From assembly GCA_034190465.1 (NCBI GenBank), contig JAXINV010000021.1, forward strand, positions 1 to 41,119: a stretch of DNA of 41,119 bases. Reading direction: 5' to 3'. Origin of the DNA: Candidatus Asbonarchaeum danakilense. Its GTDB lineage: Archaea; Nanohalarchaeota; Nanosalinia; Nanosalinales; Nanoanaerosalinaceae. Of the stretch, positions 7,388 through 36,999 are shown one piece after another. Made by a program: the position numbers and the translations under genes. The first letter of the stretch is position 1; each line of letters begins with the position of its first letter. The notes beneath the pieces were generated by a model. That model saw only the letters and a list, made by a program, of their open reading frames with translations, ran no database searches and had not been told where the DNA came from.

Positions 7388-9058
7388 ATGGCACAGCTAG
7401 GAGGACAACCGATTTTGGTAATGTCAGAAGACGCACAGCGTCAAACGGGCAAGGACGCCCAGGAGAATAACATCAACGCATGCAAATCAGTAGCTAACGC
7501 AGTCAGGACCACGCTCGGTCCCAAGGGGATGGACAAGATGATGGTCGACTCCATCGGCGACCTCGTCGTCACCAACGACGGCGTCACCATCCTCGACGAG
7601 ATGGATCTCGAGCATCCCGCGGCCAAGATGATGGTCGAGATCGCGCAGACACAGGACGAAGAGGTCGGCGACGGCACCACCACCGCCGTCGTCATCGCAG
7701 GCGAGCTGCTCAAAGAGGCAGAAGACCTGCTCGACCAGGACATCCACCCAACGGTCATCTCATCCGGCTACCGGCTCGCCAAGGAGCGGGCGCTCGAGGT
7801 GCTGGACGATGTCGCAGAGGATGTCGACTTCGACGACCGCGACAAGCTCGTCTCCGTCGCCAAGACAGCGATGACAGGCAAGTCGGCCGAGACGAATAAA
7901 GAATACCTCGCCGACCTGGCAGTCGACGCCGTCAGGCAGGTCGCCAGCAAGGACAGCGAACTCGACCGCGACCTGATCAAGATGGTCAAGAGCCAGGGCG
8001 GCTCCGTCGACGACACAGAGCTCGTCGAAGGCGTCATCATCGACAAGGAGAAGGTCCACCCGGACATGCCCGACGAGGCAGACGACGCCCGGATCGCACT
8101 GATCAACACCGCCGTCGAGGTCCAGGAGACCGAGACCTCTGCCGAGATCCAGATCAACGACCCGAACAAGCTCCAGGAGTTCGTCAACCAGGAGGAGGAA
8201 TCCCTCAAGGAGATGGTCGAACAGATCAAGGCATCCGGCGCCAACGTCGTCTTCTGCCAGAAAGGCATCGACGACATCGCACAGCACTACCTCGCGAAGA
8301 ACGGCATCATCGCCGTCCGGCGCGTCAAGCAGTCCGACATGGAGAAGCTGTCCAAGGCGACCGGCGCCAAGATCGTCAACAGCCTCCCCGATCTCAGCGA
8401 GGACGATCTCGGCACTGCCGGCCGTGTCAGGCAGCGTAACGTCTCCGGCGACAGCATGATGTTCATCGAGGACATCGACAGCGCCGAGTCTGTCAGCCTG
8501 CTCATCCGTGGCGGCACCGAGCACGTCGTCGACGAAGTCGAGCGAGCGTTCGAGGACGCACTCGGCTCCATCACAGCAGCGCTCCGCCACGGCAAGATCG
8601 TCGGCGGCGGTGGCGCGACCGAGGTCGAGGTCGCCAAAGAGCTCAAGGACTACGCCGACTCCGTCGGCGGCCGTGAGCAGCTGGCGATCACCGCGTTCGC
8701 CGAGGCCCTCGAGGTCATCCCGCGGACGCTGGCTGAGAACGCCGGCCTGGACCCGATCGACGTCCTTGTCGACCTGCGGACCAAGCACGAAGACGGCAAC
8801 ACCTGGTCCGGCATCGACGTCATGACCGGCAACTCCGAGGACCTGTTCAGCCAGCACGTCGTCGAGCCGCTGCAGACCAAGACGCAGGCACTCCAGTCCG
8901 CGTCCGAGTCCGCAGAGCTCATCCTGCGGATCGACGACGTCATCTCCGCCTCCGGCTTCGACGGCGAAGGCGGCGGTGACGAGGCAGGCGGTCCACCCGC
9001 CGGTGGCGCCCCAGGCGGCGGCATGGGCGGAATGGGCGGCATGGGGGGCATGATGTAA
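7388..9058 (+). CDS. ths: thermosome (group II chaperonin) subunit
   Basis: [25 protein letters not shown] and a GGM-repeat tail. Confidence 0.98.
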
Positions 9059-9194
9059 GGCATTAGCCTTACAAATGCCTTCCCTTCGAAGAAAATCCGC
9101 CAGGATTTTCGGGCATGGGCGGAATGATGTGATCATTCCGGCCTTCGAGAAGCGCGAGCTTCGAGCATGGGAGGCAGGATGTAGCCTCCGTACC
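9038..9194 (+). repeat. triplicated thermosome 3' end with fold-back copies and hairpins
   Basis: GGCATGGGGGGCATGATGTAA (9038-9058), GGCATGGGCGGAATGATGTGA (9112-9132), AGCATGGGAGGCAGGATGTAG (9164-9184). Hairpins at 9091-9110 and 9149-9162. Confidence 0.85.
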
Positions 9195-26860: not shown

Positions 26861-27427
26861 GTGGGTCTCGATACGCAGCTGTTCCTCGCCGTGCACAGTC
26901 TGACCGGCGGCATGCTCGACCCCTTGATGCTGTACGCTGCTGACTACCTCGTTCTCCTTGTCTCACTCAGCCTGGTGCTCTGCTGGTACAGCGACGACGA
27001 GCTGCGTCTCGACGCGCTGTACGTGTTCACCGTCGCGCTCGTCGGTGTCGCGGCTTCCTACACGATGGGCGTGTTCTACACGCACCAGCCGCCGTCCCTG
27101 GTGTACGACACCCTGGTATCGGCGGCAGGGGAGAACGCGTTCCCGAGCCAGCACACCGCGGTCCTGTTCGCCACGTCGTTCGGCTACTTTTGGCGCCGGC
27201 TGGACCGGTACGGCTGGCCGCTGCTCGGCGCATCTGTGCTGACCGGGCTCGCCCGGGTCTACATCGGTGAGCACTGGCCGGTCGACGTCCTCGGCGGCAT
27301 CGCTGCGGCAGCGCTCGGGCTCGGGCTTGTGTACCTGGCTGAGGACCGGCTCCGACCGTTGCTGGACCGAGGCATCCGTCTCTACGACACGGTGGAGCAG
27401 CGGGTCGCCGCCGCGATCAAGACATAA
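26861..27427 (+). CDS. PAP2-family membrane phosphatase
   Basis: FPSQH and ARVYIGEHWPVDVLGG motifs. Confidence 0.9.
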   Translation: MGLDTQLFLAVHSLTGGMLDPLMLYAADYLVLLVSLSLVLCWYSDDELRLDALYVFTVALVGVAASYTMGVFYTHQPPSLVYDTLVSAAGENAFPSQHTAVLFATSFGYFWRRLDRYGWPLLGASVLTGLARVYIGEHWPVDVLGGIAAAALGLGLVYLAEDRLRPLLDRGIRLYDTVEQRVAAAIKT

Positions 27428-27461
27428 AAATATGCGTTGCCGAACCTGTCACGTCCCACAA

Positions 27462-27534
27462 GCCCCCTTAGCTCAGCTGGTAGAGCACTACCTTGGTAAG
27501 GTAGAGGTCCCGGGTTCGAATCTCGGAGGGGGCT
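27462..27534 (+). tRNA. tRNA-Thr(GGU)
   Basis: GCCCCCTTAGCTCAGCTGGTAGAGCACTACCTTGGTAAGGTAGAGGTCCCGGGTTCGAATCTCGGAGGGGGCT. Confidence 0.96.
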
Positions 27535-27603
27535 TCGAACCTTGCTGTGGCAAAGAAGGCCCGATGCAATGTGTCGGGAAGAGCTTACTGGCGGTTTCCT
27601 GCC

Positions 27604-28203
27604 ATGAATCGTGAACCTTGGGCGCCTTATTCCAAAAATCCCGAAAAATTCGACGAGGAGGTGAAAGAGGAGAACCTCCCTGATACGTTTCTTGAACTAC
27701 GTGAGAGGTTCGTGGACGAGGTCGGAGCGGGCAGCATCCTGGACGCAGGCTGCGGATCAGGCAGAGACACCGATTTCTTTGCAGGGCGAGGATTCAGCGC
27801 CCATGGCATCGATATGGCGGACGGCATGATTGAATACGCCAGACAGCACAGAGACGGTAGCTACCAGAAGATGGATCTCCGCGATCTCAGTTTCCAGGAC
27901 GATTTGTTCGACGGAGTCTGGGCTTCTGCCTCGATTTTTTTCATGCCTCCGGCAGACATGGAGGTCACACTCCAGGAGTTTCACCGCGTCTTGAAGACCA
28001 GCGGCGTTCTTTACGTCAACTTCAAGGAAGGTGAAGGAGAACAGGTCAAACAAATCTGGGGGGACAGCGTAACAGAGTACCACGTCGCAGCGGATACGGC
28101 CGAAGACCTGCTCAAGGCAGCCGGATTTACTCTCATCGACAAGACGACCAACGTATCGAAAAGCAGGGACAACACATTCTTCAACTTCCTCTGCAGAAAA
28201 TAA
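27604..28203 (+). CDS. class I SAM-dependent methyltransferase
   Basis: [27 protein letters not shown]. Confidence 0.9.
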
Positions 28204-28255
28204 CAGCAGATTGGGCCGACCCAGATTCTTAAAGCTGGCACCCGCCCCTCCATAC

Positions 28256-28540
28256 ATGGCACAGGAAGTCAGGGCATCGCACATCCTCGTCGACAACGAG
28301 ACCCATGCGAAACAGATCAAGGCCAAGCTGGACAAGGGTGAGGCCTCGTTCGAGGAGCTCGCCAAGAAGAAGAGCGAAGGACCGTCCAGCAAGGACGGCG
28401 GCGACCTCGGGTTTTTCGGCCGGGGTAAGATGGCCAAGCCGTTCGAACGCAAGGCCTTCGACATGGACGTCGGCGAGATCAGCGAGCCCGTACAGACACA
28501 GTTCGGATGGCACATCATCAAGAAAACCGATGAGCGCTAG
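28256..28540 (+). CDS. parvulin-type peptidyl-prolyl isomerase
   Basis: RASHILV, FEELAK..S, GGDLG.F..G.M...[10 protein letters not shown]. Confidence 0.95.
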
Positions 28541-28690
28541 TCATCGGTTTTCTGGTGAAGCCGAAGATCTCCGATCTTCAATCATCAAAAAGACGGATGA
28601 ACGATAGTCATCCGTCTTTTCTGCATGATGCTGAAGACCTTCAAGGTCTTCAAATCAAAAAGACGGACAACCGATAGCCTCCGTCGTTCC
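28514..28690 (+). repeat. triplicated parvulin 3' end with fold-back copies and hairpins
   Basis: IIKKTDER* (28514-28540), recoded IIKKTDER* (28581-28607), IKKTDNR* (28654-28677). Hairpins at 28563-28579 and 28633-28651. Confidence 0.9.
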
Positions 28691-28923
28691 TACATGCTGG
28701 CCACTCCTTCTGCACAGCGGCCTGGCAACAGCGGAAAGTTTATAAATACTGATCCCGATTTGATGTAGTCCGCCCCTCAGGACACGGGGCGAGGATGGAC
28801 GGACAGCTCACAGGGCTTATCCGGACATCCCGATCTTCTGCATGGCCTCAACGCCATCTGACAGATACGACGCTCACCTCCTCAGTCAGGCGTCACGTTA
28901 TCCTTCACAGGAGGGTTTTGCAC

Positions 28924-29889
28924 ATGGACTGGGACAACTACACAGACACAGGAATGCTCAACGCAGCAGAAGACTTCCACAGCTGCAGCCATGGCGCGAT
29001 CAAGCCCACCTACATGATCGACAGTGACGGCGGACGCATCCTGCACACCGTCAGCCTCGGCGACGAATCCCGGCTCCACATCACGCGGGAGGTCTACGAC
29101 CGGCTCAGCGACACCGCGGTCCCGTCGCCCGACGTCGTCCACGACGCCGCCGACCAGACCGTGCCCTACCTCGTCGTCGAGGCAGTCGACGGCGACAACC
29201 CGGAGACCACGTACAGCGACATGCCGGTGGACGAGAAAGCATCGTTCTCCTACCAGGCCGGCCATGCGCTCGGCGAGGCTCACAGAGCGCTCAGGACAGA
29301 ATCGGCCGGCACGCTGGACGGCACCGGGGACGGCATCGAGATCCGTGACGCGGACTGGGACACGCTGCTCACCGGCCACATGCGGGACAAGATCGACTAC
29401 CTCCGCGAGACCGAGCTGGACAGCGCCCTGCTCGACGACGCCGAGCAACTGGTCGACACGATCGAGGACGAACTCGACGCGCCCGACGAACCCGGCATCA
29501 TCCACCTCGACTACCGGCCCGGCAACCTGATGTGGGACGACGGCGACGTCACCGCCGTCCTGGACTGGGACAACGCCCGAGCGGGCGACCAGCTGTACGA
29601 CTACGTCAACGCCGAGACATCGTTCGTCGAGAACGCTCCCGAAAAGCACCAGGACAATGTCAGGCAATCATTCCGCCAGGGATACGAGGACGCCGGGCAG
29701 ATCGTGGATGAAGACCGGCTGTACGAGACCTACCGCTACCTCTCCCTGCTCTCAAAGACAAAAGGGCTGCTGTACGTCAACGAGGAGTACAGCGCCGGGA
29801 GGGAGCAACGGGCAGAACGGTTCACAGAAGCGTTCAAAGAACAGCAGCCACAGCTGATGGCGCGATACGGGATAGAAGAAGAGAGGTAA
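28924..29889 (+). CDS. APH/choline-kinase-like phosphotransferase
   Basis: HLDYRPGNL and VLDWD motifs. Confidence 0.88.
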   Translation: MDWDNYTDTGMLNAAEDFHSCSHGAIKPTYMIDSDGGRILHTVSLGDESRLHITREVYDRLSDTAVPSPDVVHDAADQTVPYLVVEAVDGDNPETTYSDMPVDEKASFSYQAGHALGEAHRALRTESAGTLDGTGDGIEIRDADWDTLLTGHMRDKIDYLRETELDSALLDDAEQLVDTIEDELDAPDEPGIIHLDYRPGNLMWDDGDVTAVLDWDNARAGDQLYDYVNAETSFVENAPEKHQDNVRQSFRQGYEDAGQIVDEDRLYETYRYLSLLSKTKGLLYVNEEYSAGREQRAERFTEAFKEQQPQLMARYGIEEER

Positions 29890-29898
29890 CGAGGGAGC

Positions 29899-30069
29899 TT
29901 ACTCCTCGTCGTCCTCTTCCTCGCCAGCACCCTGTTTCTTGATCTGTGCGCGCTGGACGAGCTGGTTCTTGACCTTCTCCAGGATGACGATGCTTGTCGC
30001 CAGGTCGAAGCTGGAGTTTGTGTTCATCTTGCCGTCTTCGTCTACCTCGATCTCGATCGTCTGGGCCAT
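29899..30069 (-). CDS. small hypothetical protein
   Basis: MAQTIEIEVDEDG...; host-like codons and an acidic tail. Confidence 0.6.
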   Translation of the reverse strand: MAQTIEIEVDEDGKMNTNSSFDLATSIVILEKVKNQLVQRAQIKKQGAGEEEDDEE

Positions 30070-30116
30070 GGGTAACACGGAACGGTTCACGGGCTCAACA
30101 TTGAAAAAGAAATCGG

Positions 30117-30356
30117 TCACTTCCACGCCGGCATCTCATCCAGCTTCCGCCGCACATGGCGCAGCGCCTTCTCACGGTCGCCGACGTCGTGCTCAGCCAT
30201 CAGCCGGTCCGCCACCTTCTGCTCGACCGCCGAACGGGACAGCAGCTCGCCTTCGTGGTCCGCACAGGCGGAACAGTACGGGATGCCTGCATCGTCCCCC
30301 GCATGGTCCTCCTCCGACGGCATCTCAACACCGCAGCTTTCACACCGTTCAACCAT
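30117..30356 (-). CDS. zinc-ribbon protein
   Basis: CESCG..M...YCSAC...G and C-terminal MPAW. Confidence 0.75.
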   Translation of the reverse strand: MVERCESCGVEMPSEEDHAGDDAGIPYCSACADHEGELLSRSAVEQKVADRLMAEHDVGDREKALRHVRRKLDEMPAWK

Positions 30357-30387
30357 GGGCAGGTATGGGCGGCGCAGGCTTAAGAAG

Positions 30388-31170
30388 TCACGTGGAGTAG
30401 TCCGCGCCGAACTGGTCCAGGTTGGACTGGCTCTCCCGGAACTGGTCGTAGTCCGAGATCACGTCCTCCATCTCGACCTCGACGAACTCCAGGTCGCGTT
30501 CCGCCAGGTAGTCCTGCACGCTGTCTGACGCCTTCGGCGCGACCAGGATGCCGCGCAGCTCACGGCCCGGGAACTCGTCCTCGATCTCGTCCATGTATCG
30601 GTTCAGCTGGAGCACCGAGTTGTGGTCCGGGTTGCGCTTCACCTCGATGACCACCAGCTTGTCGTCCGTGTCCCGCGCAAAGACGTCGATGAACCCGGCC
30701 GGCGTGTCCTTCTCCCGTTCCACCACCGTCAGCCCGTCCTCCACGATGTCCGGCTCCTCCTCGATCGCCTCGTGGATATCGACCTCGTGGCCCCTGACCT
30801 GCAGGTCGCTCCGGTCCACCATCTGCGTGACATAGATCATCTCCAGTTCCTCAAACCGGATCGTCACCGTCTCCTGCGGGTCGTGGCGGCGGGAGTCCAA
30901 GACCAGCTCATCGCCGTCAATCCTCACGTCGAACGAGTCCGTCTCCGGCTGCCAGTTCTTCGGCTGGTACTGTTCCGGGCCGTGGACCAGCAGCGCGTTG
31001 TCCTGCTTCACGATGACAAGCCGCTCACCACGGTCCAGCTTTGACTTGGCCCTGCCCTGGTAGTTGACCGAGCACAGTCCTGTGACCTGGAGCACGTACG
31101 GCCGTGCGATGTACTGCTCCACGAGGTCGCGGGCCTGTTCCAGCGACGGGCCCTGGACGAGTTCCTGCAT
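30388..31170 (-). CDS. nucS: endonuclease NucS/EndoMS
   Basis: C.V.Y.GRA.S.L..GER, P.NWQP, G.IDV...D......IEVKR, QL.RY, RGILVAP. Confidence 0.95.
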   Translation of the reverse strand: MQELVQGPSLEQARDLVEQYIARPYVLQVTGLCSVNYQGRAKSKLDRGERLVIVKQDNALLVHGPEQYQPKNWQPETDSFDVRIDGDELVLDSRRHDPQETVTIRFEELEMIYVTQMVDRSDLQVRGHEVDIHEAIEEEPDIVEDGLTVVEREKDTPAGFIDVFARDTDDKLVVIEVKRNPDHNSVLQLNRYMDEIEDEFPGRELRGILVAPKASDSVQDYLAERDLEFVEVEMEDVISDYDQFRESQSNLDQFGADYST

Positions 31171-36652: not shown

Positions 36653-36883
36653 TGGCAGGGCCCGGATTTGAACTCGAAAATCAAAGATTTTCTTGGGGTT
36701 CAAATCCACAAGCCTTTCAGTGGGTTCGCTTGCGAACCCGCTCTTGCGTGTCGACCGAGCGTAACCAGTCGGATGGCAGGGCCCGGATTTGAACCGGTCG
36801 CAGATCACAGACCATGCTCAAGGTTCAAAACACGGGCTTGTCAGCGAACGAACGTGAGATGGCAGGGCCCGGATTTGAACCGG
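36653..36883 (-). repeat. two extra copies of the tRNA-Pro 3' end, each preceded by a fold-back copy
   Basis: On the plus strand TGGCAGGGCCCGGATTTGAAC starts at 36653, 36774 and 36860; GAAAATCAAAGATTTTC hairpin at 36676-36692. Confidence 0.9.
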
Positions 36884-36932
36884 GGTCCACAGCGCCCGAG
36901 GCTGCGATGATAGTCCACTACACCACCCCGCC
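36860..36932 (-). tRNA. tRNA-Pro(CGG)
   Basis: GGCGGGGTGGTGTAGTGGACTATCATCGCAGCCTCGGGCGCTGTGGACCCCGGTTCAAATCCGGGCCCTGCCA. Confidence 0.9.
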
Positions 36933-36977
36933 ACATGACACTCAACACGCGGTGATGATGGCCGAACACAGCGGTTC

Positions 36978-36999
36978 GTCCAGTACACCACCCCGCCAC
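36978..36999 (-). repeat. copy of the tRNA-Pro 5' end
   Basis: GTCCAGTACACCACCCCGCCAC versus GTCCACTACACCACCCCGCCAC at 36913-36934 (1 mismatch). Confidence 0.85.

What the first reader, a model, noticed from the sequence alone, without database searches (positions are those of the whole stretch)
28514..28690. Parvulin C-terminus repeated with purely synonymous recoding, mirrored by its antisense arm
Seen: the gene end ATC ATC AAG AAA ACC GAT GAG CGC TAG and copy 2 ATC ATC AAA AAG ACG GAT GAA CGA TAG differ at 5 positions, all synonymous (IIKKTDER*). Each antisense arm matches its own upstream copy (AAAACCGATGA/TCATCGGTTTT; AAAAGACGGATGA/TCATCCGTCTTTT). Copy 3 encodes IKKTDNR*. Inference: each copy was once the functional, selected gene end, and end plus antisense arm travel together as a unit. 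Neutral decay of a tandem duplication would not be expected to give only synonymous changes.
Basis: partly seen in the sequence, partly recalled or inferred. Interest (0 to 1): 0.8.

Follow-up and report, generated by a model that had tools for sequence, protein, structure and literature searches.

The report
Hairpin cassettes swapping gene tails
Behind a protein-folding gene of a tiny salt-loving archaeon lie short hairpin-forming DNA cassettes, each carrying its own working spelling of the gene's last codons; the same cassettes stack up behind other core genes and tRNAs and change order between relatives, which points to an undescribed kind of mobile DNA whose moving enzyme is still unknown.

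Summary
Confirmed, and larger than the finding. The parvulin end is followed by two ~67-70-nt units (gene end, antisense arm, small GAARATC-type hairpin) and a third, decaying copy. Copy 2 differs from the gene end at 5 of 5 silent sites (P 0.0009-0.008 under neutral decay). The same layout occurs behind thermosome (this window) and ProRS, behind 13 of 34 tRNA calls in this genome, and across DPANN. Over 26 end/copy pairs, 71 changed codons are silent and 17 are not (57-60 expected). Arms match their own upstream copy at 22 of 28 junctions. In the sister genome, units that are spare copies here are the working gene end (thermosome 94% alike; two ProRS units in swapped order), and related contigs differ by one unit. 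Best reading: gene-less, target-restoring mini-cassettes, probably recombining through a folded arm-hairpin-end site (inferred). No enzyme was found. It fails tested features of integrons, ICEs, MITEs and REP/RAYT systems. This scan noted the same kind of element before on other DNA (tRNAs, other gene ends, DPANN and CPR). Nine paper searches showed no description.

The parts
28256..28540 (+). parvulin-type PPIase gene (94 aa), the target
   Evidence: PF00639, E 6e-26; relatives in 40 of 61 genomes searched
28514..28540 (+). working gene end (IIKKTDER*), start of unit 1
28541..28558 (+). antisense arm 1: 13 bp perfect to end 1, 18 bp with one bulge and a G:T pair
   Evidence: compensatory T28531C/A28543G in a related contig of run X6
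28563..28579 (+). small hairpin Y1 (7-bp stem), the motif shared with tRNA and thermosome units
28581..28607 (+). copy 2 of the gene end, 5 silent changes
28608..28628 (+). antisense arm 2, 13 bp perfect to copy 2
28633..28651 (+). small hairpin Y2 (9-bp stem)
28654..28677 (+). copy 3 (IKKTDNR*), one non-silent codon, most distal
28678..28698 (+). degenerate arm 3
7388..9058 (+). thermosome (chaperonin) gene, a second protein target in this window
   Evidence: PF00118, E 5e-190
9038..9184 (+). thermosome array: end 9038-9058, arm region 9059-9090, Y 9091-9110, copy 2 9112-9132 (GMGGMM*), arm 9133-9143, hairpin 9149-9162, copy 3 9165-9184 (MGGRM*)
   Evidence: unit 2 is 94% like the gene-end unit of G001
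36653..36997 (-). tRNA-Pro(cgg) 36858-36933 with two 3'-end copies (about 36794-36774 and 36673-36653, Y at 36676-36692) and a mirrored 5'-end copy with hairpin and arm (about 36997-36940)
27461..28255 (+). tRNA-Thr(ggt) with a short antisense T-loop arm behind it, then a variable slot holding a methyltransferase gene
   Evidence: slot empty in an X3 contig (short 30-nt side) and filled by 555 other letters in an X6 contig

Best explanation
The units are gene-less, target-restoring mobile mini-cassettes: [allele of the target's end][antisense arm][constant small hairpin Y]. A cassette enters just upstream of the last ~8-9 codons, so its own allele becomes the gene end and the former end is pushed downstream. 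Repeated entry builds an array with the newest unit next to the gene and the oldest, decaying copy last. The silent differences are allele differences between the lineages the cassettes passed through. Shown: structure, silent bias, arm covariation, many unrelated targets, unit gain or loss, and swapped order. Inferred: the mobile form is a circle or single strand in which arm, Y and the cassette's own end fold into one rod; Y is the protein-binding part, the arm:end duplex matches the target, and an unidentified enzyme acting in trans does the exchange.
For: Silent bias 71 vs 17 codons, 57-60 non-silent expected (26 pairs). Non-silent changes collect in terminal copies: 10 of 25 changed codons there, against 14 of 78 elsewhere, 5 of which are residues seen in natural alleles (all 31 pairs). 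Arms match their own upstream copy at 22 of 28 junctions. ProRS stem 87% paired with 12 double-sided changes, 0 of 500 shuffles as high, about 46% when slid by one column (10 units). One Y motif serves parvulin, thermosome and tRNA units; 17 of 35 such hairpins lie in tRNA zones that cover 2.5% of the genome. In 29 tRNA-type units the arm sits 6-9 nt (14 units) or 13-14 nt (14 units) before Y (one mis-pick at 91) but 1-174 nt after the upstream end, so its place is set by the junction. Circularised unit 1 folds into an 18-bp stem, a 4x2 internal loop and a 7-bp hairpin. G001 has G000's second ProRS unit first and vice versa (0.83/0.84 vs 0.71/0.75), and G000's second thermosome unit as gene end (0.94). 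Arm 1 resembles arms in another family (0.73-0.82) more than G001's arm (0.57), while the 5' part of the gene is closest to G001. A related X3 contig lacks one unit (joint 28610-28718). One tRNA-Ser unit spans 6.5 kb of redox-type genes.
Against: No enzyme found. G000 has one tyrosine recombinase match and none for Y1, Cas1, RT, IS110 or serine resolvase. No integron integrase over cut-off in 70 genomes. The single-contig genome G032 has a parvulin array but no PF00589 match. No recombinase family recurs among 392 ORFs at 29 DPANN array loci. No circular junction was seen in the 4 runs laid (contigs only), and no attP-like site in 5 viral-contig scans. Y also occurs without arm or copy, in tRNA introns and inside ORFs. 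ProRS units use a different small hairpin. An X6 contig joins arm 1 to a Y2-like hairpin, so borders are not always the ones I propose. G011's copy is identical to its gene end, as a plain target duplication would be. No strand preference could be fixed. Related genomes are not independent, so the pooled z of about -10 overstates.
Confidence: 0.6

Rival explanations
1. No dedicated enzyme. Y is a REP/RPE-like palindrome. DNA taken up from relatives recombines through the long gene body on one side and a short illegitimate joint at the hairpin on the other (homology-facilitated illegitimate recombination, recalled), leaving the donor's end, arm and Y in front of the old end. Unequal exchange between units reshuffles them.
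For: No enzyme found. Y occurs in many settings, including introns and ORFs. The X6 junction mixes units. It explains allelic copies equally well.
Against: It does not explain a target-specific arm at a fixed distance from Y at many different tRNAs, mirrored 5'-end units, or arm 1 being closer to another family than to the congener. My test for a co-transferred gene body was inconclusive: identities upstream of the end were 0.63-0.83 with no clear donor.
Confidence: 0.2
2. The units are collapsed scars of larger integrase-bearing viruses or islands whose attP carries the gene end (ICE/CIME-type tandem accretion).
For: [quoted passage not shown] Tyrosine recombinases occur in 43 of 70 genomes. 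A 6.5-kb cargo unit exists.
Against: At 30 integrase loci viewed, those next to a tRNA show no arm-Y-copy unit there. One Y motif at many unrelated targets would need many integrases. Unit lengths are uniform (63-70 nt in 11 of 12 parvulin units). No viral contig carried such a site.
Confidence: 0.12
3. A host 3'-end RNA hairpin (stabiliser or terminator) was duplicated locally with a Y insertion and a long target duplication; the copies then decayed while palindrome correction kept the arms matched.
For: Arms without copies follow many parvulin ends. The G011 copy is identical. The sense strand folds better as RNA in 10 of 11 parvulin and 7 of 7 thermosome units. Insertion with long target duplication is known (PMC2853133, passages).
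Against: It predicts mostly non-silent decay in the copies (57-60 codons; 17 seen). It does not easily give the swapped ProRS order. The sense strand folds better in only 2 of 10 ProRS units.
Confidence: 0.08

Closest known systems
Target-restoring integration by ICEs, prophages and islands at tRNA or conserved gene ends, with tandem accretion (PMC5812530, passages; e14 and phage 21 at E. coli icd are recalled, not read)
   Same: The element brings a working copy of the target's end, the old end is displaced, and arrays build at one site.
   Different: Units are 50-160 nt with no integrase. One small hairpin motif serves many unrelated targets. Each unit has an arm antisense to its own copy of the target.
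Integron cassettes and attC sites (PMC4792948 and PMC9668308, passages)
   Same: The arm pairs with the start of its own unit; a circular junction would fold as outer stem, internal loop and inner stem; order is shuffled; arrays lack a nearby integrase (as in CALINs); empty and cargo-bearing units both occur.
   Different: No IntI found; no AAC/GTT triplet at the protein targets; the entry site is the end of a housekeeping gene or tRNA, and the outer stem is target sequence.
IMEX / CTX-phage folded single-stranded attP used by XerCD (PMC3442271, start of abstract in listing)
   Same: A gene-less folded site could mimic the chromosomal target and use an enzyme in trans.
   Different: IMEXs use dif only. 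Here there are many targets, and no Xer-like match was found in G000 besides one tyrosine recombinase, nor any in G032.
REP/BIME with RAYT, and RPE-type palindromes (PMC3733652 and PMC3184786, passages; MJRE only from an earlier scan note)
   Same: Short dispersed palindromes, flush with stop codons or in frame inside genes.
   Different: No Y1 transposase in G000 and matches in only 4 of 70 genomes; the passages seen describe no replacement allele of a gene end or target-specific arm.
Insertion with long target duplication (PMC2853133, passages)
   Same: Long direct repeats around an insert with no mobility gene.
   Different: There the repeats are near-identical and flank restriction-modification genes; here they are diverged working alleles.

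Membership tests
Integron (IntI/attI/attC) | Integron integrase in the genome or lineage | tested here: not met
   TIGR02249: 0 of 70 genomes over cut-off, 1 sub-threshold match; many genomes are incomplete, and no control genome passed the cut-off either
Integron (IntI/attI/attC) | AAC/GTT crossover triplet at the outer stem | tested here: not met
   Present in many tRNA units because the T-loop reads GTTC, absent at parvulin, thermosome and ProRS junctions
Integron (IntI/attI/attC) | Imperfect hairpin of two stems separated by an unpaired spacer, arm matching the unit's own start | tested here: met
   (predicted folds only)
Integron (IntI/attI/attC) | Recombination of one folded single strand | not testable with these tools
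   DNA fold energies equal for both strands
ICE / prophage / genomic island | Target restored by an element-borne copy of the gene end | tested here: met
ICE / prophage / genomic island | Cognate integrase in or beside the element | tested here: not met
   one of 29 DPANN array loci (L270) has an integrase-like ORF downstream, judged by eye
MITE | Constant terminal inverted repeats and an identical target-site duplication | tested here: not met
   Arms are target-specific and copies are diverged alleles in 30 of 31 pairs
REP/RAYT or IS200/IS605 (HUH Y1) | Y1 transposase present with the repeats | tested here: not met
   0 in G000, 4 of 70 genomes, while Y occurs in 10 of 10 genomes tested
IMEX (Xer-exploiting elements) | Target is dif, recombined by host Xer | tested here: not met
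   Targets are tRNA and protein gene ends; no PF00589 match in G032
Casposon / CRISPR array | Cas1 enzyme; constant repeat with unique spacers | tested here: not met
   No Cas1 in G000; the repeats are target-specific alleles
Described RNA family | Rfam match at gathering score | tested here: not met
   Only the tRNA reaches threshold in 27000-30500

The most novel reading that the evidence does not exclude
A structure-specific, sequence-reprogrammable integration system of DPANN (and, by earlier unchecked notes, CPR and some methanogens). One unknown enzyme recognises the constant small hairpin, while the cassette's own arm:end duplex sets the target by homology, so almost any conserved gene end, gene start or tRNA loop can serve as an attachment site without breaking the gene. 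The arrays would be an integron-like, shuffling cassette store anchored in essential genes.
Probability: 0.35. Interest if true: 0.92.

Novelty: new variant of a known kind. Interest (0 to 1): 0.74.

Why it matters
It shows the ends of core genes in reduced-genome archaea being exchanged between lineages without changing the protein, and gives dated stacks of former alleles. It ties tRNA-trailer repeats, tRNA-intron hairpins and gene-border repeats in DPANN to one motif. If the arm sets the target, the enzyme would be a recombinase retargeted by about 20 nt of pairing, of clear mechanistic and biotechnological interest. Protein targets are the informative case: unlike tRNA copies, silent differences show which copy each arm belongs to and the order of events.

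Tried and rejected
Rfam: no family besides tRNA. BLAST and nhmmer of the parvulin units find only this locus, so the unit sequence itself is not dispersed; only Y is. Weak PF00589 matches near ProRS in family f3 looked like a linked recombinase but are a DEAD-box helicase. Enzyme searches without a match: Y1, Cas1, RT, IS110, resolvase in G000 (92% complete); large serine recombinase in 5 genomes; Y2 in 5 genomes, where the control rang nowhere, so uninformative. Metagenome scan with parvulin gave mostly distant bacterial homologues; the 17 of 80 loci whose ends I printed showed no array. Viral-contig scans: 5, 0, 2, 0 and 9 hits, none at a tRNA or showing an arm-Y-end site. Thermosome pattern over GTDB: 49 hits, 5 at chaperonin-like ends. 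Sequencing runs: no RNA holder listed; contigs show no circular joint but cannot show absence. A mini tandem-inversion duplication was rejected because Y is not derived from the gene and is shared with tRNA units. IS91-type and IS608-type target motifs (recalled) were considered; no shared tetranucleotide exists across the targets. Test for a co-transferred gene body: inconclusive. Paper searches: one search was for IMEX background; the other nine listings showed no description of this element, and one search returned nothing. No supplements were opened, and subscription papers are missing from the library.

Full report
What is there. The window comes from a 1.2-Mb, 61% GC archaeal genome, 92% complete. 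I take it to be a nanohaloarchaeon from its size, its salt-lake holders and earlier scan notes; this is inference. The ORF 28256-28540 is a parvulin. Its last nine codons are followed by an antisense arm, a 17-nt hairpin (Y1), copy 2, arm 2, a 19-nt hairpin (Y2), copy 3 and a worn arm 3. The two end:arm stems are the longest perfect hairpins of the genome (13 bp; 10 of 11 bp or more). The stretch lies whole in one contig in runs X1 and X2.

Silent bias. For the finding alone, P(5 of 5 silent) is 0.0009-0.008 when the gene drifts silently and the copy neutrally. I then collected copies by nucleotide identity, blind to translation, behind 33 parvulin, 29 thermosome and 33 ProRS ends (loci L026 and L293 were left out because the end was not parsed): 31 pairs. 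I dropped 4 pairs found through a codon-shaped pattern and 1 identical pair, and kept 2 likely chance matches that count against the bias. The 26 left have 71 silent and 17 non-silent changed codons, against 57-60 non-silent expected (lowest 43 in 1500 simulations). Kin are not independent, so the size of the gap matters more than the z-score. Terminal copies of multi-unit arrays carry most of the decay, as expected if the oldest end is last. Copies often keep lineage-specific residues (TEER in G014, RKDD in G069).

Arms. The arm matches its own upstream end better at 22 of 28 junctions, the downstream copy at 1, with 5 ties. In 10 ProRS units chosen for having a copy, not an arm, the stem is 87% paired with 12 double-sided changes (0 of 500 shuffles; about 46% when slid by one). 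A related X6 contig has a silently different end with the compensatory pair T28531C/A28543G.

It is a family. Y recurs in this genome at tRNA trailers, in tRNA introns, behind the thermosome gene and in frame inside ProRS; 17 of 35 such hairpins fall in tRNA zones covering 2.5% of the genome. 13 of 34 tRNA calls with a T-loop have downstream 3'-end copies (one only across an N gap). 10 of 36 were flagged for an upstream 5'-end copy, 2 of them artefacts. A scan of 4957 ORF ends flagged 9, of which parvulin (twice) and thermosome are real arrays; ProRS came. Parvulin arrays were detected in 6 of the 29 loci that parsed, and in 3 more genomes by pattern; thermosome arrays in 6 of 29 and ProRS arrays in 7 of 33. 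The tRNA-type site gave 32 GTDB hits, 26 in archaeal records titled Nanohalarchaeota, Pacearchaeota, Woesearchaeota, Nanoarchaeota or unnamed archaea. Y was found in 10 of 10 genomes chosen partly for having arrays (51 hits, 0 in the reversed control). Rough automatic labels put 20 hits at tRNAs and 7 at duplicated ORF ends; by eye about 11 duplicate a gene start on the other strand.

Units move. G001, of the same genus, has as its working thermosome end the unit that is second here (0.94). It has the first two ProRS units in the opposite order (0.83/0.84 against 0.71/0.75); duplication followed by differential loss could also give that order, but either way each unit served as gene end. For parvulin, G001's end matches copies 2 and 3 at 21 of 24 nt and its arm matches arms 2 and 3 (0.72, 0.71), whereas arm 1 is closer to arms of family f3 (0.73-0.82) than to G001's (0.57). 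So unit 1 looks like the newest arrival. An X3 contig lacks one unit. An X6 contig has a Y2-like hairpin right after arm 1, so exchange between units also happens (both laid at 80% likeness, so these are relatives, not this strain). One tRNA-Ser unit spans 6.5 kb; of the 6 cargo ORFs I scanned, 4 matched redoxin, ArsR, DsbA-cupredoxin and oxidoreductase families and none an integrase.

Mechanism. In 29 tRNA-type units the arm lies at a fixed distance before Y (6-9 or 13-14 nt by lineage) but anywhere from 1 to 174 nt after the upstream end (the 1-3 nt from Y to the copy was imposed by my pattern). With the arm matching its own unit's start, this is the geometry expected if the working site is the junction of a circular unit: arm, Y, own end. 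That junction folds into a single rod with the topology described for attC sites, which share structure rather than sequence (PMC4792948, passages). This step is inferred. No circle was seen, neither strand is favoured, and no enzyme was found. I give 0.6 to target-restoring mini-cassettes moved in trans, 0.2 to enzyme-free uptake with a joint at the hairpin, 0.12 to scars of larger integrase-bearing elements and 0.08 to local duplication.

Comparison with what is known. Restoring a target gene end and stacking in tandem are known for ICEs (PMC5812530, passages). Folded single-strand sites are known for integrons (PMC4792948, PMC9668308, passages) and CTX phage (PMC3442271, start of abstract in a listing). 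Palindromes at stop codons and in frame are known for REPs (PMC3733652, passages); MITE features are from PMC3184786 (passages). Long target duplications are described in PMC2853133 (passages). Keyword passages of PMC8371274, 10.1101/2025.02.15.638363 and 10.64898/2026.06.17.729505 showed no such element. The e14/icd precedent is recalled, not read. Each family fails at least one defining feature tested here, so it works like a target-restoring integrative element, perhaps with an attC-like site, but is a member of none. No supplements were opened.

Earlier scan notes (AI, mostly unchecked) describe the tRNA form in this genome and in other DPANN and CPR genomes, and silent-recoded gene ends at other genes. 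They are not independent support.

Verdict: real, lineage-wide, not described in the papers searched; mobility well supported, chemistry open. Interest 0.74.

Noticed in passing
window 27535-28255: The methyltransferase gene between tRNA-Thr and parvulin is absent in an X3 contig and replaced by 555 other letters in an X6 contig: a variable slot.
   Followed up: partly
G000 C16:18678-18700 (L308/L350): A Y-type hairpin lies in frame inside the ProRS C-terminal domain, in a stretch longer than in relatives.
   Followed up: partly
L415, L421, L422, L431, L448, L451-L453, L460, L462, L463: Two-hairpin modules at gene starts on the other strand appear to supply a GAGGTG ribosome-binding site and a duplicated start codon; read by eye.
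   Followed up: no
L388, L392: Two Methanobacterium records have the same Y-type hairpin just behind a chaperonin-like stop codon, one with a short echo of the end.
   Followed up: partly
window 36653-36997 and G000 C5:47218-47500: The same tRNA-Pro(cgg) gene with the same two trailer units and a near-identical 5' unit occurs on two contigs with different flanks.
   Followed up: no
G000 C10:16453-22990 (L195): 6.5-kb redox island between tRNA-Ser(cga) and a copy of its 3' end, with an arm-like and hairpin-like right border.
   Followed up: partly
G000 C16:8930 and C37:5505: Two more ORF ends have a 10-bp antisense arm around the stop codon but no copy.
   Followed up: no
G000 C44:2193-2660 (L196): An integrase-like N-terminal frame right behind tRNA-Glu(ctc) ends early, probably a broken gene; judged by eye.
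   Followed up: no
L338:8157-9266: DEAD-box helicases of family f3 give a weak false match to PF00589, which inflates integrase counts at E near 1e-4.
   Followed up: yes
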